This document shows positions 17,601 through 63,565 of a DNA stretch of 64,000 bases, one piece after another (the first letter of the stretch is position 1; the number at the start of each line of letters is the position of its first letter). Source of the DNA: Paecilomyces variotii (Eukaryota); the NCBI GenBank assembly GCA_004022145.1, contig RCNU01000005.1; one strand, given 5' to 3'. Under the pieces are notes generated by a model that did not search any database, was not told the DNA's origin, and saw only the letters and a program-made list of their open reading frames with translations. The position numbers and the translations under genes are program-made.

Positions 17601-18234
17601 AATCGTCGTCCAGACCAAGCCAACCGTCTTCGTCCACAAATTGATTCTGTGCAGTGAAGAACGACGGCGTCTCACTACCCGAATCGTCACTTAACCAATT
17701 GGTCCGTTCAGTCCTCGGCTGGCCCGAGAGGTACTGATTGATCCAATCTTCCGTAAAATCCCTGATAGATTTCCCTCCTTGTCTACCTGGTATATCTCGC
17801 GCAGTAGCACGCCCCACTGAAGGATACACTCGCCTGGCGATGGGGCTCGAGGCCGACGGGTGTCTCAAATCCGGAGTATCCGCGCTTGATACCTGGTGCA
17901 AGCCGCTTCGCGTAGACACTGGGGACGTGTCTCCCGAGTGGTGACCTGGTTCGGCGACTTGACTCTGTGTCCAAGAGGGTCTGCGCGGACTGGGAGTCGC
18001 GTACGGCGATCCCCACGCAGTCGTGTAGTAGGTACTACTTTCCGCCCGTCTATACTCGGGGGAAGACGACAGCGAGTCCCACGCCGTACCTCGAAACTTG
18101 GGCAGTGCCGGAAGCGCTTGGGGAATCGGAGTCGAGCTCAGCTGTCGACGCTGACGACTAGGCGAACCGGAACCCCGGACGCTCCAGTTGGCAGGGGAAG
18201 TGGCGCGTGAGAGCGACACCAATGGCGCAGCCAA
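11605..18234 (-). CDS. Large (~2200 aa) fungal coiled-coil protein of the type often annotated 'myosin class II heavy chain-like'; no motor domain visible; true 5' end probably further upstream
   Basis: Single 6.6-kb ORF with S/P-rich disordered N-half, FNVEAKEF/FNVDAPVF motifs and a long C-terminal heptad region. The ORF opens on TTG; a CTGAC...TTTCAG acceptor near 18316 and a GTATGT donor near 18482 suggest an upstream exon. Confidence 0.8.
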   Translation of the reverse strand: MAAPLVSLSRATSPANWSVRGSGSPSRQRRQLSSTPIPQALPALPKFRGTAWDSLSSSPEYRRAESSTYYTTAWGSPYATPSPRRPSWTQSQVAEPGHHSGDTSPVSTRSGLHQVSSADTPDLRHPSASSPIARRVYPSVGRATARDIPGRQGGKSIRDFTEDWINQYLSGQPRTERTNWLSDDSGSETPSFFTAQNQFVDEDGWLGLDDDSREEDPLKTPTVADYVARRARVNNAETGLLPPRAKHISRKSTDTLKQEDFWGFAYDKDPVPSKMSDHQDRQLSVEENAAKPLSPVEKPLPPPPPAETPLGESSTPKISSGDVSPVKAAKASSTARPKKRVVWRGKACIIAVPLEDKRGSEESGYRLLTRADVEARLKKFQDEGYDTRGFSICMPEESFAPSEEGALSRPLHPDPADMKKEWDAHNFHVSFPDQSVWDEYVNFLKEEKLRALGVSLGDDEPQQTISPASGSMSHLPGQLPGLISSPPVPTGSANSNQFFAGHPFSPHFNQSANLGSIASPAFYGGDQNLPSGFPFQFTPPIQGTFTPQSFLNARQTGVSPTVPSNLPNLNSILSPVSPLNTDDSNAFHPGLHDIVSPHNEFRQDGHGDLHSQPPRQLQTPSEKNEPESFQSHVEIAHPTPRGHGHNVSETLQKGLDRYAQADYHLEESIQRQLEEDDRESNQQHQFGANDLLNSRWALPDKIPQSSQFPRQGSLSQQHHLFGEHYQEETGRDASDIDTNPSVSGTPRVQSHSANQPSWHKSRQSNSSFAPGHKPRTSLSNFNVEAKEFDPSGSFSSSNFQFQGNSFQPSGFDSAGIFSPNSIFKPASSAGSFNVEASPFSPFTGQNSFSGQNSFSGFQFSPAAFNVDAPVFNPGNAVNPIVSSSEPPAGGKSKIFGDIDFTQISKPAKKSKAIPIVRPDEHGSDTKENENENDKEKAREETGRQKRARRTDDDGDKEVELAAPLSEAAQRQSPQVPSTSHAPAEGKENAIPGAEEKVTLDTKIDIVPSEEKPVESKETPVSEAETWTPFEFKNEADAAAFNAAGPDAPGKVGVEKQESNGVVEREASQFPAAENGESVAPKEEIPPPRQESSYNNAKRPLRSKPFEFRPSIAEFIPSKFVLPKSDAEPAPKKAAGLMASRYAVISPPASPEVGAKEPETPKPTTTVTAEPVSKESPKPADQTAEPGEAHDSPDEEELNAVMEQLNGDDSDVGIERQITPRPPLETIPSPVEPTTEPSLPPVNIIRSEAPSPSPKAPRQIRDIPKRGSDVGVKSPAALSASGFASHANSSVRQALSVNEELSDWNDVLSSGEDEKLANRSRFFDSRVDDIVGTALDERLGPLEQTLSVIQQSVASLASRSGSRRPLRSTSAEIEHSDADDEDDEEAETRSRSPLDIRDRKMEKLKNAVLDALVAHQSSRPEPAAPAVDFSFLQESIAELKSIAASRQPAAETENLRETVQAVIAEQLSIRDARRSDADEYDAESLKLQVDGLKSMLRIADERADQQHKAYRESQDSLAEVQRLLKFAEEDAARHRDSALAAEESLRVFKEERIPHFEWIQKRSDALQEQQESLQLTLSELSAKNIALEGTLDEYRLSSDQWRHQIEEVKAENKDLRATINHLKSRIEDSLRARQSLRTKFDRLQDDMTTATRDIVREQAAWRKREEDHIAKYNALRASYDREVKLREKLEIDISELEQQEREAAKLKFIFAQSQHENARLEELISALRLENNELQSKAVRFEREFNEARESSRAEVQRTRTSMEADIEAANNQVNYVRAELEAQISRVQNELENVRMDADTTKERYELLLEEAKDAREAALAAALESKETALEEQRKLHERVLNDLRERHARALHNASEDKQRNEEHMLEKLSLSDEKVEHYKDRVAHLEEKLEIAKSAARAAAQAAQAKGAPISSPPQPTSPSMSFRRDSVPEKISPQALRESILVLQDQLQQREGRIEDLEQELSTVDKEAPNKIKEKDTEINWLRELLGVRIDDLQDIINTLSQPSFDQNAVRDAAIRLKANLQMEQQEKERAMAGGQTFPSLSSISNLAASPRALPLAAAAAWGSWRKARDANLSEQTPSKSSTAGGFLSGLLTPPSSNVRQSPINGSAPSMMQGARRSYSESRPLRSYNSNKTLRSASARHSESPSRLEPPTTPPLLRRSSYDHDAEPNNYENGTFGDDLESTMGGLVSQSPRSVEGPFGPQIVS

Positions 18235-18852
18235 GTATGCTTCGTCACGAATATTACGCTCTAGAGGTCGAGAAGGCGAAGACGCCGGGATGGCGGAGAC
18301 GGAAGGAGTTGGACCTGAAATCCGCGCGCATTGATGTCAGTTTCCATTCAATCACCCTTTTCTTCTCTGTTTCCCCGGTCTCATCTTCCATCGAGACGCG
18401 CCAGGCACGAGAGAAACCGGCGTTATCGATACAAGAAAAGGAGAAGCCGTCAACCGCGGTCTAGAGTAGTATATCAACATACCTTCCGTGTCGTCTGCTG
18501 CAGCAAGCACCTGCTTGCCGCGCCCCTTATCGCCCGGAATATTGGAGCATGGAAATCAAGCCGGGGCGAAATTCAAAGAAACCTTGCAGAAACACCTAAG
18601 ATCGCAGCGATCTTAGGGCGACAGAAAACCGATGCTGACTACTGCCGTGACTGTAGCGATCCGCGCCGGAATCAAGCAAGGAGACCGGGAAGGGGGAGTT
18701 GGTCTTTCCGTGCGGATTTGCAGGGAGATTATTTCGACAACTAGATCACAGGAACAACCTTGAGTATGCGAGAGCTTGGACCATGGCGCACACACAATGG
18801 AGAGCTGGATCCAGATGCGAAGACCAGGATGGGGAAGACGGGGGGAGGAAGA

Positions 18853-31542: not shown

Positions 31543-33691
31543 ATGATCGGATTTCTGCTGGCCCTGTCATTGCTGGCCGCAGCAGTGGACCAACTCCCGC
31601 TGCAGGAACAGCTGGCCGCATCGCCATCGGACGCCCTCAATCCGCCAGAGATCCAGAGACGGCCCTCAAGTGGTCTCAAGGGTCGTTTTTTACACATAAC
31701 AGGTACTGTTTGCGAGGGAGAAAAATGAGTTAAAAAAATAACTGTAAATGGTACGCGTGCTGACCGCGACAGACTTTCACCCCGATAGCCATTACAGACC
31801 GAAAACGTCGACGGACGAGAGCGTATCTTGTCATCGAGGCAAAGGAGATGCGGGGTATTTTGGAGCCGCGGGGTCAGAATGTGACTCTCCCTTCTCGCTC
31901 GTCAACGCGACATTCAGATGGATCGACGACAATCTAAGAGACGAGATCGACTTCGTCGTATGGACCGGAGATTCTGCACGCCACGACAGCGACGAGCGCA
32001 TTCCGCGGACAGAGGATGAAGTTTCATCATTGAACCAATACATGGTCGACAAGTTCGTGGACGTCTTTGGCAAGGAGAACAACAATCACGATATCGACCT
32101 GACCAACGACCTGACTATCCCTATTGTACCGACCATTGGCAACAATGACATCCTGCCCCATAACATTCTCCGGCCAGGGCCCAATAAATGGACGAAGAAG
32201 TTCTTGACGATCTGGAGACCTTTTATCCCAGAAGAACAGCGCCACACCTTTGTGGAAGGAGGCTGGTTCTGGACGGAGGTAATCCCGCAGCGGCTAGCAG
32301 TCGTCAGTCTGAATACGCAGTATTTCTACGAGTCCAACAGTGCCGTCGATGGGTGCAAGCGCAAGTCTGAACCAGGCTACGAACAGATGGAGTGGCTTAG
32401 GGTTCAGCTGGAGCTCTTTCGGGAGCGCAACATGAAGGCCATCCTCATTGGTCATGTGCCTCCGGCCAGAACCCATGATAAAAAGAACTGGGATGAGACG
32501 TGTTGGCAGAAATACGCCCTTTGGTTGCACCGGTTCCGCGATGTGGTCGTCGGAAGCGTTTACGGACACATGAACATCGATCATTTCATCATCCAGGACA
32601 GTCACCACATCGACATAGTCGAGGAGGCAGACACAGGCAGCAGGTCTGAACAGGAGTTTACGACAGAATCGAAGTCGTCATACCTTACTAGTTTACGAAA
32701 AGAATGGTCAAAAATGCCATCTCCACCCGCAGACGACGACTTCCTCGAGAACTGGGACCTCGGGAATGACGGGGACCCGGTGTCATCACTGAAGAAGGGA
32801 AAAAAGAAACGCAAGTTCCTTAAGAAGATCGGTGGTCGTTGGGCCGAGCGTTACAGTGTATCCTTGGTGGCACCCAGTGTGGTGCCGAACTATTTCCCCA
32901 GTCTCAGAGTGATCGAATATAATGTTACGGGGCTGGAGGCCGCCATGACGTGGGCAGAAGCTACCACGCATCGTGCGTCGCCCGGGGTAGTAGAGAAGGA
33001 CCCTGAAAATGAAGAGTCGCTGCCATACTCTGATGATCCTGATAGCGATGTCAAGAAAGACAATAAGAAGAAGGGCAAGGGAAAGAAGGGCCGCAAGAAG
33101 AAGCCGAACTTCAAGGTTCCTGATCCGCCATCCTCTCGCGCCCCTCCTGGGCCCGCTTACTCGAATCAGCCTCTGTCATGGCTGAGTTACACTCAATATT
33201 TTGCGAATCTCACCAAGATCAACAAAGAAGCTACAGAATTGCAAAAGTCCTCCGAGCAGCAATCAAGAACCTGGAGAGAATACAAGCTTGCAAAGTCGCA
33301 GCCGGACTACGCCAAAGTGCCATTCGAATATGAAGTGGAATATGAGACGAAGACGGACAATGTCTATCATATGAGGGACCTCACTGTCCGCAGCTTCTTC
33401 AAACTTGCTACGCGGATCGCAAACGATGAACCTACGGGAAAGAATCAAATGCTTCCAGGCGCCTCCAATGGCGAATACATAGCCGACTCTGGAAACGATA
33501 CGAGGTCAGCAGAAGATGATGATAGAGTGGAAGATGGCCCCATTGGTGAGACGAAAAAAGGAAAGGGAAAGAAGAAACACAAGAAGAAGAACAGGAAGCA
33601 TGCTAACAGAGTATGGGTTACTTTCTTGGAGCGGGCGTTTGTAGGTTTCTTCAATGACGACATCGAGAACATGCAGAACGAGTCGTACTGA
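31543..33691 (+). CDS. ppn1: Vacuolar endopolyphosphatase (metallophosphoesterase), intron ~31703-31772
   Basis: N-terminal hydrophobic anchor; LKGRFLHIT|DFHPD, CDSP, WTGDSARHD, GNND, GHVPP, YGHMNIDHF and PSVVPNYFPSLRV motifs. Confidence 0.92.
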
Positions 33692-46400: not shown

Positions 46401-47400
46401 AGGAACTAGTTACTGCAGCGAGTGAGAGGAGGGGCAAAGATACCATGAGTGTGGCAGGGCCGAGTTGCTGCAAGGCTGAGCGTCAGCTCGACAATCAGTG
46501 GGGGGACGATTTCCAATGAGAAAGACGACGGAGCAGGAAACAGAAATGCCATGAAGCGCCATCTGAGCATTTGACACTTTCTTTGCAACAATATCCGTTG
46601 TTGTTGCTTGGGGGCCGGCCTGCAGGATATTCTTGGTAGCGGTACTGTGTGCCGTTCTGTATGTTTTCGGACCGGCACGGATGGTGTCAGTGCTAGACTA
46701 GTGCTCGAGTTATGCTCTGTACCCGATCAGTAATATGGTAAGATTAATGATAACAATAGTGATAACGATGGCATCGTGATGGTAATCTATTAATGGTTGT
46801 TACGCCCACCGGTTCAACTAGATAGAGTACAATATGGTACACATTAAAGATTACATCTTGAAATGGCCGTAACAATGATAGCACCCAGGCTGCGCACGTG
46901 CTTTGCCTATCTGCTCGAAATCGAATAATTGGGAAGGGTTGATTGTTCCACTTGAGATTATTGAAACGGCTCCAGCGCTATAACACGCTTGGGGTAATCA
47001 CTTTGGCTCTGTGTGGTCAAGCTTGTAATGTCGATACCAGCTGGGTTCGAGGGGTGGAGTAACTACTAGGTAGCTATGGTCCTCTCTCTTTCTCCGTTGC
47101 ATGGCAGCAGCATACTCTATATAACTACAGCCATACACAGAGAAGAACCAGAACGAAGAATATTAAATACAGTCGACTGAATCCATCGTCGACCGTGGCA
47201 ACCAGCGCTGAACCTTGGATGTTTCCTTACGCCGATCTTACAGGTCTTTTACGTCACAGCACGGACTCGCGCCGGCTAAAAATTACGACGGCACCAAAAA
47301 CGGACGCCCCGAAGACAGAGAGAGGCAGAGAAGAGATCATCTATCGTTGCAACTCCTGCTGGGGGGAAAAGCTGGTTGCAGAAAAAAAGAAGAAGAATCC

Positions 47401-47428
47401 CCATCGCATCGCATCGCATCGCATCGCA
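47401..47428 (+). repeat. (CATCG)n pentanucleotide microsatellite
   Basis: ccatcgcatcgcatcgcatcgcatcgca. Confidence 0.75.
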
Positions 47429-47785
47429 GCAGCAACCACCAGAGCCACGCACCCCCCCCATAAACTCCCCCCGCCCCCACCATCTGTGACGACTGGGTTG
47501 CTCGCCCGTGTTGTTGCTGCGGTGTTGGCTGTGCGTAAAGAAAGGACAAAACATCCCCATTGCAAGCTATTATTATTTAGATCACGCCCGCTCGTCTGGA
47601 CGCAGTGGTGGTCGTGCTTTCCACAAGACCGCGCAGCCTGCTCATCCAAGCTTGGCCCGGATGGCTACCAAGCAGTCGCTCGATTCCAACCGCCCATCAT
47701 CACGTCACTGTTCGATATCGCCAATCGTGCTCATCGCGCCCTGAATCGACTCTTCCTTTCCGTACGAGCCGGTGAGCGTGGGACA

Positions 47786-48856
47786 ATGCGCTCTGGGTTG
47801 CAGACTCCTGGAGTTATCCCGTTGCTCGCTCTCGTCGTCTTCGCACTGCTCAGCGTGGTACCGACGGCTTTGACGGCATGGGAGAGCTCCAGTGCACGTC
47901 CAAACTGGCTGGCATACCATGCCAATGACCTTCCACGTGCGTTACGAGACTTGGCCGCGTCGAATCCGACGCAGCGTTGGCTGATCCCGGAAGCTCCAGG
48001 CTCTGGTATGGAGGATGATGCATCCATCCTCGATGTCGACACCAGCGTCCAAGCGTTCTACATAGGAGATGGCTACGATGGCTTCTCCCGCGACTCCATC
48101 CTGTCCCCACGTCCCAAATATCACCTCCCCCAGGTGACCGTCAGCGAGTCTACCGATTCCAGGCCATTTGTGGCAGCAGAAACAATGAAACAAGACCTTG
48201 TGGAGGAAGCTACCGACAGCGTGACCGTCTTCTCTGGCCCTTTCCGTTCGTTGAGGACGTTCGTTTCCCATGGCTCTAAGGATAGCCGACTGGGACACCT
48301 GCTCCCTGGCCGGAACATGCTGTCGACCGTTTTCTCAGCGGTTGCAAACTCTTCTCACCAAGGGGTCCTTGCTGATCGGACAAGGGGCACTTCATGGACG
48401 ACAGGATCCAAACCGGACGGTAACCGCCTGGTCTCCGGCCTTCCGTTTCCTGGTAGTCTCTGTGAGACGTGGCAGCAGGTCTGTCACCTGGGAATGAGCG
48501 CTTGGGGCGACTGGGACCGCTCTGCCCTTCTTGCCATGTTCAACGGATGGATCGGTTCAAGCAAAAAGAACCCTGTTCATCACGAATCCCTTGGGAAGAG
48601 TCAATTCACGGTACATCGCCAAACAGAAGGCTCTGTACTCAGGAGTCAGTCGTCAACATATGACGAGACGGCCCACCCCTTATCGAAAGCCTCAAAAACT
48701 CACCTCTTCGATGCGTCGACTCTAACTCTTCCCCCTTCCACGAGCCCCACCGACCAGCCTAACGTCGCTGCTGGCGCTTCGACGAGTCCCAAGGAAATGC
48801 GTGGAAGCTGCATGGCCATCGTGATCGGCTTGGTAGTCGGGATCATGTGGTTTTAA
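47786..48856 (+). CDS. Hypothetical secreted or membrane-anchored protein (~356 aa)
   Basis: MRSGLQTPGVIPLLALVVFALLSVVPTALTA is signal-like; the body is S/T-rich; the C-terminus is a hydrophobic tail GSCMAIVIGLVVGIMWF*. The upstream part of the 553-aa ORF runs through microsatellites and is probably UTR. Confidence 0.6.
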   Translation: MRSGLQTPGVIPLLALVVFALLSVVPTALTAWESSSARPNWLAYHANDLPRALRDLAASNPTQRWLIPEAPGSGMEDDASILDVDTSVQAFYIGDGYDGFSRDSILSPRPKYHLPQVTVSESTDSRPFVAAETMKQDLVEEATDSVTVFSGPFRSLRTFVSHGSKDSRLGHLLPGRNMLSTVFSAVANSSHQGVLADRTRGTSWTTGSKPDGNRLVSGLPFPGSLCETWQQVCHLGMSAWGDWDRSALLAMFNGWIGSSKKNPVHHESLGKSQFTVHRQTEGSVLRSQSSTYDETAHPLSKASKTHLFDASTLTLPPSTSPTDQPNVAAGASTSPKEMRGSCMAIVIGLVVGIMWF

Positions 48857-55188: not shown

Positions 55189-56688
55189 ATGGGTTCCTTC
55201 GAAAAAACAACGGAACACGCGCCCAGGTATATTGCGCAGTCATACAATCATGCAGACTCGCAAGCATCCGCGCTCAGGCTGGTGCTGACCCTCAACCCGC
55301 ACTGGGAGGGCCCTGAGAACAAGATCGAGTTGGTGCGATTCACGGATGGCATAACTAACACTGTGTGTTCCTAGAATCCTAGAAATATCGGGACCATTGG
55401 GCGCTTTGCTAACTGTGCTTAGCTATTGAAAATCGTGAACCGGAAGCCCGGTTTGACGGACGAGGATATAGACAATGAGGCAGTACTGATGCGTGCGTAT
55501 GGTAACCACACGGAGATCCTCATAGACCGCGAGAGTAAGCCCGCCTCCTAAGCTCTTCCTGCCCAATGCGACAACGAGCTGAGTAGAACTTCGTCATGGA
55601 TAGGAGAGACCAACTCCCACGCTCTTCTCGCCAGGCGTGGCCTTGCTCCCCCGCTTCTGGCGCGCTTCCAGAATGGCCTGTTATACCGATTCCTTCGCGG
55701 TCGAGTTGCTGCTCCTACAGACTTGGTGAAGCCTGCGGTCTGGCGAGGGATTGCAAGACGACTGGGCCAGTGGCATGCTGTCCTCCCAATTAATGAAACG
55801 CCTTCGTCCACTTCCACGGAAACGGGACTCCCCTCCCGGCCACTAGATGTCGATTCGCAAGACGAGCAAGAACCTAATAAGGCCGATGATATAGTTCCAA
55901 TCCAGCCCAGACAGCCCGGTACGAACATCTGGACCGTTATCCAGCGATGGATTCTGGCTTTGCCAACCCAGAATGAGGAGCAGCGCCTACGGAGACGTAA
56001 CTTGCAGACGGAGTTTGAGAAGATTGTCGCTGAACTGGACGATGGAACTGGGATCGGCCAAGGAGGGGTATTTACACCCCTACTCTCTTGGTAGACTCTT
56101 GCTAACAGACACAGCTGGTCTTCGGCCACTGCGACCTTCTTAGTGCGAATGTCATCATCCTCCCACGAAAGGACGGTGCCTCCACACCTCAAGACGGCGT
56201 TGAAAAGGTCAACTTTATCGACTATGAGTATGCCACGCCCTCTCCCGCGGCATTTGATATTGCGAATCACTTTGCGGAGTGGGGTGGTTACGACTGTGAC
56301 TACAACATGATGCCTACTCAATCTGTTCGTAGAGAATTCCTGAAGGAATACGTCACAGCATACAGTCAACACGGAGGAATCCCCGAATCAGCCGTGGATG
56401 AAACTGTCGACAAGCTCTACATGGACGTGGATCGATTCCGTGGCATTCCCGGCTTCTATTGGTAAGAATATTCCGCGTCGGACTAGGAGACATCGTATTG
56501 ATCAAGGATATAGGGGAGTGTGGTCTCTGATCCAAGCAACAATCTCTCAGATCGACTTTGACTACGCCTCATATGCCGAGGTCCGTCTAGGCGAATACTG
56601 GGCCTGGCGTCGCGAGCTCGATGGGTCTCGTGCTCGTGCAGGAGAAGAGATGCCATTGCGAGAACGCCGCTGGGCCCAGGAAGCCTAA
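55189..56688 (+). CDS. eki1: Ethanolamine/choline kinase, multi-exon
   Basis: FTDGITNT, VLMRAYGNHTEILIDR, APPLLARFQNG, LVFGHCDLLSANVI (Brenner motif), FIDYEYA, AFDIANHFAEWGG, GFYWGVWSLIQ and SQIDFDY. Confidence 0.92.
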
Positions 56689-57313: not shown

Positions 57314-58306
57314 TCAAAACTCTAGAGCGGGATTCTTCTCAGACGTGCAGCCACCTCCAGCAATATCTTTGGACCAATCGTAGATCCCCCCGCGCTTCTG
57401 GAAGCTCTCTTCATCCCAGTAAACCTGCTCCAGAGCGCGCTGAGCACCCACATCAAGTATCGATTCCGTCGGCGCGCCGGTCCCCTTGTTCAGGAATCGC
57501 ATATATTCATCGAGGATCAAATAAGAGCTGCGCATCACATCGTTCGGCTCCGGAACGAAGAACGAGTTATGCGAATGTCTATCGCAAAACTGCTGAAACT
57601 CCTCATCAGTGATCATGAACCGTCGTGCATCCCGGATCGTAGACGTGGAATCATTCTCCCCTTCAATGATCAGAACCTGGAAGCACTTCCACCGGAACGG
57701 CTGAATGGAGTTCATCTGCTCATTCATATCTTCATGAACATTATACCGGTTAACGACCGTATTAACCTTGAACTTCACACCGTACTTCCGACACAACCGC
57801 GCTACTTCCTGTACTTGCTCCAAATGCGCCCCCTTCCCACGACCAATCTGGACATTGACACTCTCATCGAAGGAATCGCACGAAACGGCAATGATATCAA
57901 TATGCTTCGCAGACCGCACCATGAACTTCTCCGTCAATTTGCTCCCGTTCGTCACGATCGATACCGACTCTAACTTCAATTCCTCCTTGCAGAAAGCAAC
58001 CAATTTACTCAAAAGTCGCGGGTAGAGGAGCGGTTCGCCTCCAGCGAAGTTGATCTTCCTCATACCGGCCTTTTTCAACATCCAGAGGCCGCGCTGCATG
58101 TTCTCGAAGGACTCGACGTGGGATGTTTTCTCTGTATGAAAGCAGAAACCGCATTCGTAGTTGCATTTGCGAGAAAAATGGAAGTTGACAGATAAGGGGA
58201 TGACTTTGGTGGAGCTGAGATTGGTATTTTGGAAGATTATCCATAGGAGGAAGGGGATGAGGGTCCCAAGGACGGCGGATGTGAAGAGAGCTTGTAGCAA
58301 ATCCAT
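57314..58306 (-). CDS. rsad2: Viperin (RSAD2)-like radical SAM ddhNTP synthase, 330 aa, intronless
   Basis: N-terminal hydrophobic helix; SVNFHFSRKCNYECGFCFHT (CxxxCxxC), KINFAGGEP, SIVTNGS, IIAVSCDSF, IGRGKG, FKVNTVVNRYN, RWKCFQVL, NDVMRSSYLILDEYMRFL and FQKRGGIYDWS, which together form the viperin signature. Confidence 0.95.
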   Translation of the reverse strand: MDLLQALFTSAVLGTLIPFLLWIIFQNTNLSSTKVIPLSVNFHFSRKCNYECGFCFHTEKTSHVESFENMQRGLWMLKKAGMRKINFAGGEPLLYPRLLSKLVAFCKEELKLESVSIVTNGSKLTEKFMVRSAKHIDIIAVSCDSFDESVNVQIGRGKGAHLEQVQEVARLCRKYGVKFKVNTVVNRYNVHEDMNEQMNSIQPFRWKCFQVLIIEGENDSTSTIRDARRFMITDEEFQQFCDRHSHNSFFVPEPNDVMRSSYLILDEYMRFLNKGTGAPTESILDVGAQRALEQVYWDEESFQKRGGIYDWSKDIAGGGCTSEKNPALEF

Positions 58307-58380
58307 GCTGAAGAAGAGGGATATGATGATGAAGTGGGGTTTGTATTTGTCTATCGGAGAATCAGGAAGAGGGATGATGG

Positions 58381-58388
58381 TATTTATA
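58381..58388 (-). promoter_or_regulatory. TATA box upstream of viperin
   Basis: TATAAATA on the minus strand about 75 nt upstream of the ATG at 58306. Confidence 0.5.
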
Positions 58389-58998
58389 CGACCCTTCTTG
58401 CTCTCTGGAGCTCTTCAGGGGAACAAAGGGCAGGTATTTTGCCTTTTGTGACAATGAAAGTCATAAGCATGTAAGAGTTAATAAGACTCATTCAATTGTT
58501 CTCTGCGTAGGGTTTTATCAGCTGTATTATCAGTGACATGACTATCTATTTGCGGTTATATCCGCATCAACAACAAAAATAGGTGCTTAGTTGTTTCACT
58601 GAAACATCGCATGCGGATCCCAGAGTCTAATGGTTTGAGCAATTTTCAGTTTGTCTCTGTGGAGATGTCGGGGAGCATGAGGCGGTAAAGTCCTGCATTG
58701 TAATATCCTCAAAAAGGATCAAGCTTCTATATTTCTATATTGTTTTCTTTCTCTAGACTGATCTGCGATACGTAGTTCTAGTGGGTTTCAGAACCTAGCT
58801 TCTCCTTTCTCTTTTGTTCGAATGTCTCGTAAATGTTTGTATAATTTGAAGCGAACAATCACTTGATGGTTTCCCAGGACGCCTATGAGAAGAAAAGGGA
58901 AAGGAAAAAACGCATGCTGATCTGTTTCATCGAATGGGTCGATTCTATCCATATCATCTATATACAACACTATATACAACTTCTATATACATTACTTC

Positions 58999-60420
58999 TC
59001 AGCAACCTTTCCACCGCCATCCCACGCTCGCTCCTCTCGCCGCAACCAGGATCGAACCCCCCAAAAGCAAACACGTACCTCCCCATATTTGTGCCCCAAT
59101 ATAATTACCACCGCCGGCTAGAATCAACTTACCTGCCAACGGCGGTCCTGTCAGACATGGAACGCTAATAATCGTAAACACCATACCGATCCTGGTGCCG
59201 CTTTTACTCAGGTCTTTCGTCAAACTGGCCAGAGTTGACGGGAAGAGACCCTGGATCCCGGCAGCGAAGAGACCAAGGAACACGATCCAGACTAGGTCAG
59301 GTGCAAGGGCTCGTACAGACTGCCATGCGTAGAGACATACAGCGGAGAGGAAGACGACTGGAATGAGGACTGTAATCGCGCTGAAGTAGCGATCTGCAAG
59401 GAGAGCAGGGATCACGCGACCGGGGATTCCGACAGCGTTGAAAATAAGGAGGATATGGAAGGATGTAGTTTGTGATACGTGCAGGATATCGAGTGCATAT
59501 GGGCGAACCTAGATGTCGATCATAAATATCAATGGATTTCCATTGGTGTTGCTTATGCAACGGGAAGGATGACTCACGTAGTAATAAGCAAAATACGTAG
59601 CCCATAGTGTGAAGAACATGCCGATTGTAAAGAGTAGATAAGGCAACTCCTTGAAGGCTGCAAGGTCGATGAGCTTGCCAGTCTTGCGTGGTGGAATCCG
59701 TGTTTGGATGGTAGATACCACCACCGCGGTATTAAAGAGGACTACAAACGCCATGATACGAACTGTCCAGGGGAAGCCAATGCGAGGCAACAGCTGTTGT
59801 GCGATCAGGGGAAAGACAATTCCCCCAGTTGCGGCGCCGCTCGCAGCTGACGAGATAGCAATGGTCCGTTTTGTCGTGAAGTAGGTCGAAACCAACGCAA
59901 TTGTCGGACAGAAGATGAGGCCATTTCCCAGGCCCTGACATATGCCCTGCGCGAGAAATAGCTGCCAGTATCGCGTGCAGAGGCTCGTCATGAATATACC
60001 GAGCACCTGTAATATGCTTCCGGATATTAGCACCCAGCGGTAATATCCTTTGTCCAAGGCGGATCCCGAAACAGAGCCGATGAGAAATATCAAGAAGAGC
60101 TGGATGCTGCCGATCCAGGAGATAGTGGACGCGGGAAGAGAGAGCCATGACGAGTAGTAGGCCTGGAATATCCCGAAACTATTGGCATATCCCCAGGTGT
60201 TGAATACAACGAGGTGGCCTGCGAGGACTTGACGCCAGGCCACGATACCTCCATTTGGTGGTGGGGGATGACTTGATAACGGAACGACAAGTGTCGGCTC
60301 TGAAATAGATTTCTCATGTTGATATTCAGAGTCCGATGTAATTGCAGCTTCTTCAGGTTTATCTGAATTGACACAGTGGGCGATTCCCTGCGTTTCTACC
60401 CCGGACTGTGAATCGGACAT
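58999..60420 (-). CDS. MFS transporter, monocarboxylate transporter (Mch/riboflavin transporter-like) family, one intron ~59511-59577
   Basis: PPPNGGIVAWRQVLAGHLVVFNTWGYANSFGIFQAYY, SWIGSIQ, LAQGICQGLGNG, STYFTTKR, GTRIGM and LTGPPLAG; about 12 TM segments. Confidence 0.9.
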
Positions 60421-61472
60421 CGTTGCAACTGCGGGGACCCCGACTTTTTGTCGGTGAAAATAGAGAAGATAAGCAGATTAGACCCCGCTACTGCATAGAG
60501 ACATTCACAGAAGAAGAGATCTCGATTCACTCGCTGCAGTGCTTCATTCAGGAACAAAATCGACTGAAATTACAATCGAGAAAATATTTGACTTCGGAGT
60601 CAGACCCCATTTCTGAATGACTCTAAGCGGCCGTCGAAGATCGGCCGGGATTTGGTCTGGAAAAGACCACAAAACACGCCTTATGGACTCATGGAGCCTG
60701 TTAACCAACGCCCCGCAACCCCGCTAACGCCTAGTACAATTTAGCTGCAGAATGCGGAGGGGCGAGGATATAGATTATAGAATAATTATCGGGTTTACTC
60801 CGTAGTGCAATTGGTGATATACGCCGCTGGTATAACTGAGATGTGAGAAGTCGATCGCTACGATGTATTCAAGTCCAAATATCAAGGGGAGTGGTAGAAC
60901 AATGAAAGTAAGTACTAAGAACAGGAAGCATGAGTAGATAAGATATCAGAATCGCTCAAGTCATAATCCTATTCGAAAATAGAGATGGGTACATATGCTA
61001 TCGTTTGGGGCCCGTAGAAAAAATACCTGCAAGAATTACAAGGGCTTAAAGGAGTAATGCAATTGGCGTGTGATCTATTGGTCACTCAAGGTAAAAATGC
61101 TCCGTCACTATGTATATTCACATCTCAATTGACTGCTGTGCTGCTTGTCTGCTTCCCTCGATTCAAATATCTATGGACAATGAGGTTCTTTATATTGCCC
61201 GATATTGAAGGCGGCATTCTACTTCTGCAGGATATCTCCGCCTTGTCCTCATTTCGCACAATGAATAATAACTCATATTTCCTTGTTTTAGATGGCAAAA
61301 CCCGGGAATTTGTAATGGAATAATGGAATCAATGGTAACTACCGCCTGTCCATGAAGAGAGATATGCAATAAGCAATTCCATATATATGTGGTAAGTCAT
61401 CGTCTTGGATAGAGAGTCAATCTTTCCCTCTTTCCAACCAAAGATCTGCCTAGGCACGAGATAGCATAAACA

Positions 61473-62425
61473 ATGGGGCTATATCAGCAGCAATACCCTC
61501 TGGCATTTCCTGTCATGGATTTCCGTCGTCGGTTGGATGAACGGCCTCCCATAAAGAGAGACTTCTACTACGTCTTTGGTTAGTGGTATTCCATGTCTTC
61601 ATCTTTCATAACAGGCTACTGATATCCAACTACGCAGGTGGTCCTGGCGCTGGCAAAGGCACAATCTGTGCTCGACTAGCACACGATCTAGGTCTCTTAC
61701 ACGTCTGCGTCGGCGATCTTCTTCGAGATGACCCACAATTGATTGACATGGAAGACGCAATGCGAGAAGGAAGACTGATGCCGAACTACGTGGTTGCAAA
61801 CGCTCTTGGGAAAGAGTTGTCCAGAACAACTGGCCCCGTTCTCCTGGACGGATTTCCTCGTAGTCAGGACCAAATGATGATGTTCCAGCACGATGTAAGT
61901 CTACTTATCCTTGCGCACTAATACCATTTTTTAGACTATTCAAATGAGACTCGTGCTAAGAACCTATCCTTTTCAAGTTCTGCCCACCAAAATACGCCTT
62001 ATATTTCTCTTGCGACAGTGAGACAATGGAACGTCGCGTTCTCGCTCGGGGCCAGACTTCGAACCGAATCGATGACAATATAGAGGCATTCTGCAAGCGT
62101 TACGTCCAATTTGAGACGGAGACTATGCCATGTGTCCATTCTATGAGAGGTATTAGTAGACTGGTCGAGGTAAGCATGTCCAAATATGAATCATTGTTGT
62201 GCTTAGATATTATATTTTGAGTTCTGGAGTTACTAAACTGGACCATCAGTTCAACTGTAGTGGTGATTTGGACGAAGTTTATGAGGATGTCAAGAACAAG
62301 CTTGAGGTATGTCTCCCATTTCTAAAAACTGTCACCGATATCTGGTTTAACGTGTGATGTAGCAACTCATGAATTGGGATGGGGAAGGGGTTTATGACTT
62401 TTACTTGATTGTCGTTGCGTCTTAG
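61473..62425 (+). CDS. Nucleoside monophosphate kinase, adenylate-kinase fold, short-LID UMP-CMP kinase (Ura6-like) divergent paralog; 5 exons
   Basis: Spliced: ...FYYVF|GGPGAGKGT (P-loop), HVCVGDLLR, LLDGFPR, RVLARGQTSNRIDDN and FNCSGDLDEVYEDV. Introns at about 61579-61637, 61895-61977, 62170-62249 and 62307-62362, all GT-AG. Confidence 0.85.
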
Positions 62426-62602
62426 ATGATGTCGCGTTGTAGATGAAATGAGAGTCAGATTAGATATGATTTTAAAAAAGCAATAGAAATGAGATATTGA
62501 GAATTTCCTCTTCTACGCTTTTCACTCGAGCATGCCCTTCACCACATGCCCATAATATCCACAAGAACAACCCCCAACCGCGAACAAAACACCTATCCAC
62601 TC

Positions 62603-63565
62603 TCAAAACTTAATAGGGAACTTTTCAAAATACGCAGACAACTTCCCCTGGAGCATATACTCCTTCTTCATCCCCTCCAATTCTTCTTCACTTTCTGCCT
62701 TATCAGGGAAGAAAAACCAGCGATACATCTCCATGAACTCATCAATATCCCTCTGAGCCTGCACTTCCTGTCCCCTATCCACTAACAGCTCCACCTCTCC
62801 AACACAGTGTCCGAAAGAGGTACGATCCAACGCAATCTCGAACCGCCCATCAGCGATAGCTAGCACCCGCTTCGTTTCGAAATCCGCAATGGGCCGTAAA
62901 CCAAAATAGACATCAGCCCCTGGCGCAGAAGGGATGTAAGTCTTCACTAGATCATGGATAGCTCGTGGACTGGTGAGTTCCTTGAAAGCTGTGCGGAGAT
63001 AATAGTCTTGTTCTTTCTCAGCAGTTGTTACTGATGGCGACGATTCAGTAGTAGAGGCGGCATTCTGACTTTCTCTCTTTTGGTGTTTCTGATGCGGAAG
63101 GATAAGACGCTGTTTGGCCTCCCATAGTTGATTGCGCTGCCTGATCCATATTCCGTTTCTTTCCAGAATACAACGCGTAGGTCCTCCAGCTTTGGCGTTC
63201 GCGTCACTGGTGGACGCGAGAGGAGCGTCGTAGTAGATATCGTGTATTTTCCGTTCTGCTTTGATTTCAAGCTTCGTGAAAGGAGGATTGCCAGATCCCT
63301 TTGTTAAAGATGCAAAGAGAGCAGGATTGTAGATGAACTTGCGCTCGATTTCGATTTTGGACATTTTGCTAAATCTCCCAGATTGGCTGTGATGCAGATG
63401 GCTAGTTCCTTGGAACCTTGACGAGAGTCTTCGAATGCATAGGGCGTAGATAGAGTGACTGGTGATCGAGAGCTTTTCATGAGCAGAGATTGGAAATTTT
63501 CTAAACAAAGAAAAATCGCCTAGGTATCTACGCTTCTGTCGGAAAACCCCGTCGCTGGCTGGCAT
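62603..63565 (-). CDS. CYTH / triphosphate tunnel metalloenzyme, thiamine-triphosphatase-like; core starts at Met 63364
   Basis: MSKIEIERKF (ExExK), DIYYD, GIWIRQR, WEAK, FETKR, IALDRTSFGHCVGEVELLV and GKLSAYF. A 67-aa R/S-rich N-terminal extension is present if the ATG at 63565 is used. Confidence 0.85.
   Translation of the reverse strand: MPASDGVFRQKRRYLGDFSLFRKFPISAHEKLSITSHSIYALCIRRLSSRFQGTSHLHHSQSGRFSKMSKIEIERKFIYNPALFASLTKGSGNPPFTKLEIKAERKIHDIYYDAPLASTSDANAKAGGPTRCILERNGIWIRQRNQLWEAKQRLILPHQKHQKRESQNAASTTESSPSVTTAEKEQDYYLRTAFKELTSPRAIHDLVKTYIPSAPGADVYFGLRPIADFETKRVLAIADGRFEIALDRTSFGHCVGEVELLVDRGQEVQAQRDIDEFMEMYRWFFFPDKAESEEELEGMKKEYMLQGKLSAYFEKFPIKF

What the first reader, a model, noticed from the sequence alone, without database searches (positions are those of the whole stretch)
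57314..63565. Candidate fungal viperin cluster: viperin + MFS transporter + UMP-CMP-type kinase + CYTH triphosphatase
Seen in sequence: four consecutive genes within 6.3 kb, three of them acting on nucleotides or triphosphates. The MFS and kinase genes are divergent across about 1 kb, and the kinase and CYTH genes converge with about 180 bp between them. Established: viperins convert NTPs into 3'-deoxy-3',4'-didehydro-NTPs (ddhNTPs), which are RNA chain terminators; vertebrate RSAD2 is linked to the NMP kinase CMPK2; some prokaryotic viperins are linked or fused to nucleotide kinases; CYTH enzymes hydrolyse triphosphates. Inference: this is a functional unit in which the kinase feeds substrate or rephosphorylates ddh-nucleotides, viperin makes ddhNTP, CYTH dephosphorylates it for detoxification or maturation, and the MFS exports or imports a ddh-nucleoside. 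That would be an anti-mycovirus module or a small nucleoside-antimetabolite biosynthetic cluster. I know of no description of this arrangement in fungi, but cannot check the literature here. It may extend beyond 64000.
Basis: partly seen in the sequence, partly recalled or inferred. Interest (0 to 1): 0.9.

Follow-up and report, generated by a model that had tools for sequence, protein, structure and literature searches.

The report
Fungal viperin, kinase and triphosphatase trio
A mould genome carries the antiviral enzyme viperin beside a nucleotide kinase and a triphosphate-cleaving enzyme, a trio that recurs in many distantly related fungi, whereas the transporter gene lying among them is a recent local insertion.

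Summary
The organism is Paecilomyces variotii or a close relative.

**Conserved unit.** It has three genes, not four.
- Viperin and a divergently transcribed UMP/CMP-type kinase are a linkage already published for fungi (Shomar et al. preprint).
- The third member is a CYTH gene, which I did not find described as a viperin neighbour.
- I examined 17 dereplicated metagenomic viperin loci with at least 3 kb on both sides. Of these, 14 carry the kinase, 13 the CYTH gene and 12 both.
- The CYTH gene sits in several different orders and orientations, and no other neighbour is conserved.
- Locus tags show the same adjacency in Paecilomyces lecythidis, Cirrosporium and Xanthoria mediterranea.
- Rasamsonia and Xanthoria calcicola are counter-examples.

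**The CYTH protein.** By sequence and predicted fold it belongs to the thiamine-triphosphatase (THTPA) branch. The catalytic Tyr/Lys dyad and the stacking Trp are conserved.

**The MFS gene.** It is found in 0 of 80 loci and is absent between the genes in P. lecythidis. It is a P. variotii-lineage insertion into the kinase-viperin promoter region.

**Likely mechanism (inferred).** The kinase feeds pyrimidine nucleotides, viperin makes ddhUTP/ddhCTP, and the CYTH enzyme hydrolyses the triphosphate product.

**Verdict.** New variant of a known kind; moderately high interest.

The parts
57314..58306 (-). Viperin (RSAD2-type radical SAM ddhNTP synthase), 330 aa, single exon, with an N-terminal hydrophobic helix
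   Evidence: ORF and CxxxCxxC motif. Pfam Radical_SAM 1.3e-19. NF038283 265 bits against cut-off 180. 97% identical to P. variotii P0002 and 61% to the Trichoderma virens protein P0072. Viperin signature columns are invariant in alignment A1.
58999..60420 (-). MFS transporter of the monocarboxylate-transporter-like type, two exons (59578-60420, 59002-59508). A lineage-specific insertion, not part of the conserved unit.
   Evidence: Pfam MFS_1 6.8e-16. Spliced X1 contig removes 59509-59577. The best NCBIfam hits are MCT-type and far below cut-off. The atlas places it among Ascomycota MFS_1 clusters, one of them named after aspyridone efflux apdF. Absent from 0 of 80 loci and from P. lecythidis by locus tags.
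60421..61472 (.). Divergent intergenic region, now between MFS and kinase. In other fungi the equivalent region (191-2920 bp) lies directly between kinase and viperin. It includes a kinase 5'UTR intron at about 61392-61453.
   Evidence: Architecture table. Joint 61390->61453 in X1.
61473..62425 (+). UMP/CMP-kinase-family (CMPK1/URA6-like) nucleoside monophosphate kinase, five coding exons, about 224 aa
   Evidence: Pfam ADK. P-loop GGPGAGKGT, GFPR and RxxxxNRxDD motifs. Best PDB match is yeast uridylate kinase 1UKY at 5.4e-34. TIGR01359 scores 129 bits, below its 207.6 cut-off. Splice joints.
62603..63364 (-). THTPA-like CYTH / triphosphate tunnel metalloenzyme, 253 aa, single exon, with two lineage-specific low-confidence inserts
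   Evidence: Pfam CYTH. ExExK motif 'EIERK'. The family profile hits human and mouse thiamine triphosphatase at E 1.6e-23 over the full length. AF2 model pLDDT 83.5. Foldseek top hits are ThTPase 5A64/3BHD/3TVL.

Best explanation
The locus is a conserved fungal three-gene viperin module into which an unrelated MFS gene has been inserted.

**Proposed mechanism**
- The CMPK1/URA6-like kinase phosphorylates UMP/CMP. Housekeeping NDP kinase completes the step to UTP/CTP.
- The membrane-anchored viperin converts UTP, and to a lesser extent CTP, into the chain terminators ddhUTP/ddhCTP.
- The THTPA-like CYTH enzyme hydrolyses the terminal phosphate of a small-molecule triphosphate. Its conserved Trp would stack on the head group.
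- The most likely substrate is the ddhNTP product. Hydrolysis would limit the product's accumulation and self-toxicity and start its turnover to ddh-nucleoside.

**Regulation**
- Kinase and viperin are ancestrally driven from one short divergent promoter.
- In the P. variotii lineage the MFS gene landed in that promoter region.

**Shown here**
- The identities of the genes.
- Conservation of the trio and its rearrangements.
- THTPA-type active-site residues in the CYTH protein.
- Transcription of the two intron-bearing genes (MFS, kinase), proved by spliced contigs; the intronless viperin and CYTH are covered by contigs of the same runs, which does not prove transcription.

**Inferred**
- All substrates and the direction of flux.
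For: **Conservation of the trio**
- Of 17 dereplicated viperin loci with at least 3 kb on both sides, 14 have the kinase, 13 the CYTH gene and 12 both.
- All-against-all clustering of 2592 flanking ORFs found no other shared neighbour. The remaining clusters, judged by their longest member, are alternative-frame shadows of viperin or CYTH.

**Rearrangement with retained proximity**
- CYTH(-)-kinase(-)-viperin(+): 6 loci.
- CYTH(+)-kinase(-)-viperin(+): 4 loci. This is the window's order without the MFS.
- kinase-viperin-CYTH(-): 4 loci.
- kinase-viperin-CYTH(+): 2 loci.
- In every case the CYTH gene lies within 4.2 kb of viperin.

**Breadth**
- The nearest named viperins of trio loci are Wilcoxina 88%, Tirmania 82-89%, Lambiella 86%, Lepraria 76%, Trichoglossum 74%, Lineolata 74% and Aspergillus 70%.
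- Locus tags support adjacency in named genomes:
  - Cirrosporium: viperin _003820, CYTH _003821.
  - Xanthoria mediterranea: viperin _003447, CYTH _003449.
  - P. lecythidis: _001045, _001046, _001047.

**The CYTH protein is THTPA-like**
- Profile E-value 1.6e-23 to human ThTPase. The next structure family scores 1.5e-3.
- Foldseek E about 1e-11, TM 0.70-0.78.
- Window D42/Y44/D46/W73/R75/R77/K84 align with human D37/Y39/D41/W53/R55/R57/K65.
- According to the Bettendorff review passages, Tyr-39/Lys-65 are the catalytic dyad and Trp-53 stacks the substrate ring.

**Fusions**
- P0320 combines a viperin part with CYTH, and P0238 combines ADK with CYTH.
- The preprint reports 4 viperins fused to a triphosphatase/cyclase domain.

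**Published context**
- ddhCTP is misincorporated by human mitochondrial RNA polymerase. This gives a reason to limit the product (abstract and passages of PMC11982959).

**Expression**
- Spliced contigs prove that the MFS and kinase genes are transcribed.
- Contigs of the same two runs, from two studies, also cover viperin and CYTH.
Against: **No biochemical evidence**
- Nothing here bears on the CYTH substrate.
- The conserved Trp and Tyr/Lys dyad are equally what a genuine thiamine triphosphatase would show.

**Linkage is not universal**
- 4 of 17 well-flanked loci lack CYTH: L015, L019, L039 and L053.
- 3 of 17 lack the kinase.
- In Rasamsonia emersonii the CYTH homologue sits on a different contig from the viperin-kinase pair.
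- In Xanthoria calcicola the tags are far apart.

**Logic of the pathway**
- A kinase that builds triphosphates next to an enzyme that destroys them looks futile unless they act on different species or at different times.

**Transcript evidence**
- The only assembled kinase transcript in X1 uses an acceptor 11 nt downstream of the conserved one, which gives a premature stop.
- Contig depths cannot be used to compare expression.

**Co-regulation and taxonomy**
- No shared promoter motif rose above shuffles.
- Taxonomy of most metagenomic loci is only inferred from the nearest named viperin. For identities below about 65% a fungal origin is not established.
Confidence: 0.5

Rival explanations
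1. The locus is a small biosynthetic cluster for an exported nucleoside antimetabolite. The kinase, viperin and CYTH, plus an unlinked phosphatase, make a ddh-nucleoside (ddhU/ddhC) that is released against competitors. In P. variotii the inserted MFS was recruited as its exporter.
For: - The kinase + modifying enzyme + phosphohydrolase + transporter logic resembles known nucleoside-analogue pathways (the cordycepin cluster, recalled, not checked here).
- The MFS landed exactly in the ancestral kinase-viperin promoter region and is retained in every P. variotii strain listed, including the divergent strain No. 5.
- Its nearest atlas clusters include one named after a secondary-metabolite efflux protein.
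- The MFS and kinase are transcribed (spliced contigs), and contigs of the same runs also cover viperin and CYTH.
Against: - The MFS is found in 0 of 80 related loci and is absent in P. lecythidis. Export cannot be the conserved function unless an unlinked transporter serves it.
- The MFS is monocarboxylate-transporter-like, with no link to nucleoside transport.
- No cluster-specific transcription factor or other tailoring gene is conserved.
- A triphosphatase alone does not yield a nucleoside.
Confidence: 0.17
2. The CYTH enzyme belongs to the module but does not act on the viperin product. It might hydrolyse canonical UTP/CTP to raise the analogue-to-substrate ratio or deplete nucleotides. 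It might remove 5'-triphosphates from viral RNA. It might act as a regulator or sensor of a triphosphate metabolite.
For: - The same conservation evidence as for the best explanation.
- TTM/CYTH enzymes include RNA triphosphatases, tripolyphosphatases and cyclases (review passages; PDB titles).
- Plant TTM1/TTM2 fuse a uridine-kinase domain to CYTH and have roles in pathogen resistance and senescence.
Against: - The protein falls in the THTPA branch, which acts on a small-molecule triphosphate with a ring stacked on Trp. It does not fall in the Cet1-like RNA triphosphatase or CyaB cyclase branches.
- A 3',5'-cyclase reaction is chemically impossible on a ddh-nucleotide, which lacks the 3'-OH (inference).
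- Hydrolysing the kinase's own downstream products would be futile.
Confidence: 0.18
3. The CYTH gene is an ordinary housekeeping thiamine- or inorganic-triphosphatase. Its proximity to viperin is inherited synteny or hitch-hiking without a functional link.
For: - Sources annotate homologues as 'thiamine-triphosphatase'.
- In Rasamsonia and X. calcicola the gene persists away from viperin.
- The family is large, with 186 representatives at E<=1e-30, so not every member need be viperin-linked.
Against: - No other flanking gene is conserved across the same loci.
- The CYTH gene keeps within 4.2 kb through at least four different arrangements in lineages whose viperins are only 50-66% identical to the window's.
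- Fusion-type gene models join CYTH to viperin or to the kinase.
- The review states that no specific ThTPase is known in fungi.
Confidence: 0.08

Closest known systems
Fungal viperin with linked CMPK1-type kinase (Shomar et al., bioRxiv 10.1101/2023.09.13.557418; passages read)
   Same: The viperin and the adjacent UMP/CMP-kinase-family gene are the same, with the kinase fewer than 3 genes away. The fungal viperin clade includes T. virens, whose enzyme makes mainly ddhUTP.
   Different: The text I could read treats only kinases as neighbours. The recurrent separate CYTH gene is not mentioned. Here an MFS gene also separates viperin from the kinase.
Vertebrate RSAD2-CMPK2 and prokaryotic pVip with adjacent or fused kinase
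   Same: The logic is the same: a nucleotide kinase supplies the substrate for a ddhNTP synthase, and the two are kept together in the genome. The window viperin matches the PADLOC pVip models.
   Different: The kinase belongs to a different family (CMPK1/URA6-like, not CMPK2). A third conserved partner, a triphosphatase, is present. None of the 79 other loci from the prokaryote collection matched the fungal CYTH profile. That search had low sensitivity.
Mammalian 25-kDa thiamine triphosphatase (THTPA; PDB 3TVL, 3BHD, 5A64)
   Same: Full-length profile match at E 1.6e-23, the same tunnel fold, the ExExK motif, the Tyr/Lys dyad, the Arg/Lys tunnel residues and the stacking Trp.
   Different: Identity is only 20-23% in the structural alignments. 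The genomic context is different. The substrate is untested. The review says no specific ThTPase has been identified in fungi.
Plant TTM1/TTM2 (uridine-kinase domain fused to a CYTH domain; PDB 7Z67 title, review passages)
   Same: A P-loop pyrimidine-nucleotide kinase is paired with a CYTH domain, with stress and pathogen-related roles.
   Different: The kinase family is different (uridine kinase). These are fusions rather than neighbours, they prefer pyrophosphate, and no viperin is involved.
Cordycepin (3'-deoxyadenosine) cluster Cns1-4 of Cordyceps militaris
   Same: A fungal cluster that combines a nucleotide kinase, a phosphohydrolase, a ribose-modifying enzyme and a transporter to make a 3'-deoxy nucleoside.
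   Different: The enzyme families are different and the substrate is a purine. The transporter there is part of the cluster, whereas here it is lineage-specific.

Membership tests
Viperin (RSAD2/pVip ddhNTP synthases) | Radical SAM CxxxCxxC cluster motif and GGE SAM-binding motif | tested here: met
   CNYECGFC in the ORF. C48/C52/C55 and G89-G90-E91 are invariant in A1.
Viperin (RSAD2/pVip ddhNTP synthases) | Score above the curated cut-off of the viperin equivalog model | tested here: met
   NF038283 scores 265.1 bits against 180. The animal-specific TIGR04278 scores 389 bits against 450 and is not reached.
Viperin (RSAD2/pVip ddhNTP synthases) | Conversion of CTP/UTP to ddhCTP/ddhUTP | not testable with these tools
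   Only by analogy. T. virens and an Aspergillus viperin make mainly ddhUTP according to the preprint. The pocket residue could not be mapped with certainty.
Viperin-kinase linked module | Nucleotide kinase fewer than 3 genes from viperin, recurrent across species | tested here: met
   Window: one gene lies between them. 14 of 17 well-flanked loci have the kinase 191-2920 bp upstream and divergent. Tags are consecutive in Thermoascus and Rasamsonia.
UMP-CMP kinase family (CMPK1/URA6) | P-loop, NMP-binding GFPR and LID Arg/Asp motifs; best similarity to characterised UMP/CMP kinases | tested here: met
   GGPGAGKGT, LLDGFPR and RGQTSNRIDDN are present. The best PDB hits are yeast uridylate kinase at 5.4e-34, Dictyostelium UMP/CMP kinase and human CMPK1.
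UMP-CMP kinase family (CMPK1/URA6) | Score above the curated cut-off of TIGR01359 | tested here: not met
   128.9 bits against 207.6. It is a divergent, fast-evolving relative: 52-57% identity between Eurotiales genera where viperin is 73-83%. I could not check whether a separate housekeeping URA6 exists in this genome, because no genome is held.
CYTH / triphosphate tunnel metalloenzymes | N-terminal ExExK motif, Pfam CYTH above gathering score, closed beta-barrel tunnel fold | tested here: met
   ExExK is present in the window protein and all 19 locus orthologues aligned. Pfam scores 26 against 23.2. Model pLDDT is 83.5, with CYTH/TTM structures as the top hits.
THTPA (25-kDa thiamine triphosphatase) branch | Closest to THTPA among solved CYTH proteins; Tyr39/Lys65 dyad and Trp53 conserved | tested here: met
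   E 1.6e-23 against 1.5e-3 for the next family. Y44 and K84 are invariant and W73 is nearly invariant in A2. Residue roles are taken from the review.
THTPA (25-kDa thiamine triphosphatase) branch | Specific hydrolysis of thiamine triphosphate | not testable with these tools
The genomic context argues for a nucleotide substrate, but that is inference.
Fungal secondary-metabolite gene cluster | Co-located biosynthetic, tailoring, transporter and regulator genes conserved together | tested here: not met
   The transporter is found in 0 of 80 loci. No regulator or further conserved gene was found. Only the three enzymes recur.

The most novel reading that the evidence does not exclude
THTPA-family triphosphate tunnel enzymes are the dedicated turnover or safety enzymes of the viperin pathway. 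Their ancestral substrate in opisthokonts would be a ddh-nucleoside triphosphate. The long-puzzling 'thiamine triphosphatase' of animals would then descend from, or still moonlight as, a ddhNTP hydrolase. On this reading the fungal trio is a self-contained make-and-limit circuit for a chain-terminating nucleotide.
Probability: 0.12. Interest if true: 0.85.

Novelty: new variant of a known kind. Interest (0 to 1): 0.62.

Why it matters
**What is already known.** Viperin with a linked kinase is a textbook example of an immune gene pair kept together from bacteria to humans.

**What a third partner would add.**
- A conserved triphosphatase partner would be a missing step: how a cell that makes a chain-terminating nucleotide controls or disposes of it.
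- This matters because ddhCTP poisons human mitochondrial transcription (PMC11982959).
- I did not find an enzyme assigned to ddhNTP hydrolysis. One full-text search gave 48 papers. I scanned the 12 listed titles and abstract starts and read passages of one paper.

**A handle on the THTPA family.**
- The result gives the first genomic-context clue to the function of THTPA-like proteins outside animals.
- The thiamine field states that no specific enzyme is known in fungi.

**Eukaryotic gene clustering.** This is a clear case of a eukaryotic three-gene cluster held together through repeated rearrangement. That is rare outside secondary metabolism.

**Testability.** The prediction is cheap to test with recombinant protein and ddhUTP.

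Tried and rejected
**Whole genome**
- Not held for this window. I could not check for a second URA6 paralogue or for unlinked genes.

**Earlier notes of this scan**
- By place and by sequence there were no look-alikes.
- By words there were only prokaryotic viperin-like cassettes.

**Shared promoter motif in 21 kinase-viperin intergenic regions**
- The best 7-mer, CAAACAA, occurs in 9 of 21 regions. The 95th percentile of shuffles is 8.
- No 8-mer exceeded the shuffles. I draw no conclusion from this.

**UTP versus CTP pocket**
- Position 257 of the T. virens protein in my alignment is Leu, so the published numbering does not fit this record.
- The column I believe corresponds holds Lys in the window and Arg in T. 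virens. That mapping rests on recall, so I leave it open.

**Read laying**
- All four runs are contigs, so depth cannot rank the genes.
- X2 covers the whole stretch in two long contigs and may be DNA.
- Parts without cover in X1 and X4 say nothing.

**Prokaryotic precedent**
- The fungal CYTH HMM hit 1 of 80 loci from the prokaryote collection. That one (L081) looks fungal.
- The HMM is too specific to exclude ordinary CYTH neighbours. I did not run Pfam on those flanks.

**Fusion evidence**
- In L035, L050 and L058 the viperin ORF ends at its normal C-terminus with a stop before the downstream CYTH ORF. These are separate genes.
- P0320 and P0238 may be merged gene models rather than true fusions.

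**Not used**
- Complex prediction, because no binding claim is made.

**Rejected: the four-gene unit as a general fungal arrangement.**

Full report
**1. What is in the window**

Stop-to-stop ORFs and Pfam scans confirm four genes between 57314 and 63565.

- **Viperin.** It is a single 330-aa ORF at 57317-58306 on the minus strand. It carries CNYECGFC and passes NCBI's viperin equivalog model NF038283 with 265 bits against a cut-off of 180. It also matches the PADLOC pVip models at 3.6e-72.
- **MFS gene.** It has two exons, 59578-60420 and 59002-59508, on the minus strand. Its 69-nt intron is removed in a spliced contig of run X1. That contig runs unspliced to 59014, which does not support the extra C-terminal intron of the NCBI model P0401.
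- **Kinase.** Its five coding exons are 61473-61578, 61638-61894, 61978-62169, 62250-62306 and 62363-62425 on the plus strand. The model agrees with the P. variotii model P0141 and with homologues from Thermoascus and Rasamsonia. Introns 1, 2 and 4 and a 5'UTR intron appear as GT..AG joints.
- **CYTH gene.** It is one exon, 62606-63364 on the minus strand, encoding 253 aa.
- **Organism.** It is Paecilomyces variotii or a very close relative. Viperin is 97% identical to P. variotii proteins, CYTH 99% and the kinase exon 99%.

**2. What was already known**

- It reports that the fungal kinases are CMPK1-type and of independent origin.
- It reports that viperins from T. virens and an Aspergillus make mainly ddhUTP.
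- The viperin-kinase part of this finding is therefore published.
- Three full-text searches found no description of a CYTH neighbour:
  - viperin + CYTH gave 7 papers, none of which, by title and abstract start, concerns viperin gene neighbourhoods.
  - viperin + 'triphosphate tunnel' gave 0 papers.
  - viperin + thiamine triphosphatase/triphosphatase/fungi gave 22 papers. Of the 15 listed, only the preprint is relevant.
- viperin + biosynthetic gene cluster + fungal + nucleoside gave 0 papers.
- Supplementary tables were closed and may hold neighbourhood lists.

**3. The test of conservation**

A scan of metagenome contigs with an alignment of 17 fungal viperins matched 536 stretches. Of these, 394 were confirmed relatives, and the best 80 were kept as loci L001-L080.

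- tblastn with the window's proteins found CYTH and kinase homologues next to viperin in many loci. It found the MFS in 0 of 80.
- Dereplication at 95% nucleotide identity left 66 groups.
- With family HMMs, 22 of 66 groups have the kinase, 21 have CYTH and 16 have both. Most of the other contigs are only 1-4 kb long.
- Among the 17 groups with at least 3 kb on both sides, 14 have the kinase, 13 have CYTH and 12 have both.
  - L015 and L053 have neither.
  - L019 and L039 have the kinase only.
  - L074 has CYTH only.
- Every CYTH hit lies 78-4143 bp from viperin and every kinase hit 191-2920 bp. Neither family's HMM hit any ORF elsewhere in the 453,104 bases of the 66 representative loci.
- The kinase is always upstream of viperin and divergent from it.
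- The CYTH gene takes at least four positions:
  - beyond the kinase on either strand (6 and 4 groups; the second is the window's order without the MFS);
  - downstream of viperin on either strand (4 and 2 groups with a kinase, plus 5 groups where only viperin and CYTH were seen).
- All-against-all clustering of 2592 flanking ORFs gave no further shared neighbour. The other clusters, judged from their longest member, overlap viperin or CYTH in another frame.
- The nearest named viperins of trio loci span Pezizomycetes-like (Wilcoxina 88%, Tirmania 82-89%), Lecanoromycetes-like (Lambiella 86%, Lepraria 76%), Trichoglossum 74%, Lineolata 74% and Aspergillus 70%. Loci below about 65% cannot be placed.

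**4. Named genomes, by locus tag**

- P. lecythidis: viperin, kinase and CYTH are Plec18170_001045, _001046 and _001047. In a second strain they are _000993, _000992 and _000991. No gene lies between them.
- P. variotii strains: one gene, the MFS (P0401/P0405), always lies between viperin and kinase. An example is DTO164E3 with 7203 CYTH, 7204 kinase, 7205 MFS and 7206 viperin.
- Thermoascus thermophilus (2467 and 2468) and Rasamsonia emersonii (10300 and 10299) have viperin and kinase consecutive.
- Cirrosporium novae-zelandiae, class Xylobotryomycetes, has viperin _003820 and CYTH _003821.
- Xanthoria mediterranea has viperin _003447 and CYTH _003449.
- Counter-examples:
  - The Rasamsonia CYTH homologue (VTN96DRAFT_5354) is on a different contig from the viperin-kinase pair.
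  - In Xanthoria calcicola the tags are _009909 and _005550, on different contigs.
- The MFS is thus a P. variotii-lineage insertion into what is elsewhere the shared kinase-viperin promoter region. It is monocarboxylate-transporter-like, far below family cut-offs, and sits among generic Ascomycota MFS clusters.

**5. What the CYTH protein is**

- Only 16 homologues were found by the word-based search. The exhaustive profile search found 1854 at E<=1e-3 and 186 at E<=1e-30.
- A profile of 22 family members matches human and mouse thiamine triphosphatase over its full length at E 1.6e-23 to 1.1e-21. The next solved protein scores 1.5e-3.
- The AlphaFold model has pLDDT 83.5 and pTM 0.79. Low confidence is confined to three lineage-specific loops.
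- The model's best matches are the same ThTPase structures, with E about 1e-11 and TM 0.70-0.78. Other TTM/CYTH proteins score 2e-6 or worse.
- ExExK is present in the window protein and all 19 locus orthologues aligned.
- D42, Y44, D46, R75, R77, K84, E129, R166, D180, E190 and E192 are invariant, and W73 and K241 nearly so.
- Through the printed alignment, Y44, W73 and K84 correspond to human Tyr-39, Trp-53 and Lys-65.
- The Bettendorff review describes Tyr-39/Lys-65 as the catalytic dyad and Trp-53 as the ring-stacking residue. It also states that no specific ThTPase is known in fungi (passages).
- Two long representatives join CYTH to partner domains. P0238 has ADK + CYTH. P0320 has a viperin segment 54% identical to the window's, followed by CYTH. 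They may be true fusions or merged gene models.
- In L035, L050 and L058 the two ORFs are separated by a stop.

**6. The kinase**

- Its best solved relatives are yeast uridylate kinase (5.4e-34), Dictyostelium UMP/CMP kinase and human CMPK1.
- The catalytic motifs are intact.
- It scores below the curated cut-off of the UMP-CMP kinase model, 129 bits against 207.6.
- Like CYTH, it evolves faster than viperin. Against L001 viperin is 66% identical, the kinase 28-39% and CYTH 32%.
- Within records labelled P. variotii, CYTH is 99%, 87% or 72% identical to the window's, while viperin is 97%.

**7. Expression**

- Spliced contigs prove transcription of the MFS (X1) and of the kinase (X1, and X4 from another study).
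- Contigs of the same runs cover viperin and CYTH. Both are intronless, so this alone does not prove transcription.
- Depths cannot be compared between genes.

**8. Mechanism**

Shown:
- the gene identities;
- conservation of the trio through rearrangement;
- an intact THTPA-type active site.

Inferred:
- The kinase raises the UDP/CDP supply.
- Viperin makes ddhUTP, with some ddhCTP.
- The CYTH enzyme removes the terminal phosphate of a triphosphate whose ring stacks on Trp73, most plausibly the ddhNTP itself.

Reasons for the CYTH inference:
- Because ddh-nucleotides lack a 3'-OH, a cyclase reaction on them is excluded. A downstream CYTH must therefore be a hydrolase.
- There is a rationale for limiting the product: ddhCTP is readily misincorporated by human mitochondrial RNA polymerase (PMC11982959, abstract and passages).

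Rivals:
- an exported ddh-nucleoside antimetabolite, with the MFS recruited in P. variotii;
- a CYTH acting on another substrate, such as canonical NTPs, ppp-RNA or a signal;
- mere synteny.

**9. Verdict**

It is wrong about the MFS as a general member. It was unaware that the kinase link is published.
- The new element is a conserved THTPA-like triphosphatase as third partner of fungal viperin. This is a new variant of a known kind.
- Earlier notes of this scan reported CYTH genes beside viperin-like radical SAM genes in some prokaryotes. I did not test those.
- My own check of 80 loci from the prokaryote collection with the fungal CYTH profile found only L081, which looks like fungal DNA.

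Noticed in passing
L081:2893-5885: A record titled as an actinobacterial MAG chromosome (Lapillicoccus sp.) holds the complete fungal-type trio. These are CYTH (HMM 1.6e-73), the kinase in two ORF pieces, and a viperin 57% identical to the window's. GC is 33-57% and long ORFs are sparse. It looks like fungal DNA binned or assembled into a bacterial genome rather than a bacterial gene set.
   Followed up: partly
window 62167-62261: The only assembled kinase transcript in run X1 joins exon 3 to an acceptor at 62260|62261. That is 11 nt downstream of the acceptor implied by all homologues (62249|62250). It puts a stop two codons after the junction. This could be an unproductive or regulated splice form, or an assembly quirk at depth 5.
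   Followed up: partly
window 57810-57873: Run X1 shows a plus-strand GT..AG joint skipping 62 nt inside the minus-strand viperin coding region. Two other X1 contigs end exactly at its borders. The donor is weak (GTACTT) and the shorter side is only 29 letters. It may be an antisense spliced RNA or an artefact.
   Followed up: partly
window 61392-61453: The kinase has an intron in its 5'UTR (joint 61390->61453 in X1), upstream of the first in-frame ATG at 61473.
   Followed up: no
window 58920: A contig of run X4 carries a run of T before position 58920. This fits the poly(A) site of the minus-strand MFS mRNA and leaves about 450-600 bp of separate promoter for viperin.
   Followed up: no
P0410, P0401 (relatives of window 57314-60420): In P. 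variotii No. 5 the public gene model merges MFS and viperin into one 739-aa protein. This chains MFS proteins into the viperin sequence cluster. The 420-aa public MFS model has a C-terminal intron that the X1 contig does not support.
   Followed up: partly
P0158, P0181: Kinase relatives fused to phosphohydrolase domains. One is an HD-domain 5'-deoxynucleotidase fused to the kinase in Setomelanomma holmii. The other is a HAD hydrolase fused to the kinase in a metagenomic protein. These are further kinase-plus-phosphatase pairings that may be related in logic.
   Followed up: no
L016, L025, L030 (CYTH ORFs): Several CYTH orthologues have Arg/Ser-rich N-terminal extensions before the ExExK motif that resemble organelle targeting peptides. 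The window's protein starts directly at the motif. Start codons were not determined.
   Followed up: no
window 55552-56465 (+): The upstream neighbour is a choline/ethanolamine kinase gene in at least two exons (Pfam 2.4e-22 and 2.4e-11). It is not conserved next to viperin elsewhere.
   Followed up: no
window 11605-18336 (-), 31748-33691 (+), 47063-48856 (+): Three long ORFs (2243, 647 and 597 aa) have no Pfam match at E<=0.001. The 2243-aa one is a very large uncharacterised protein.
   Followed up: no
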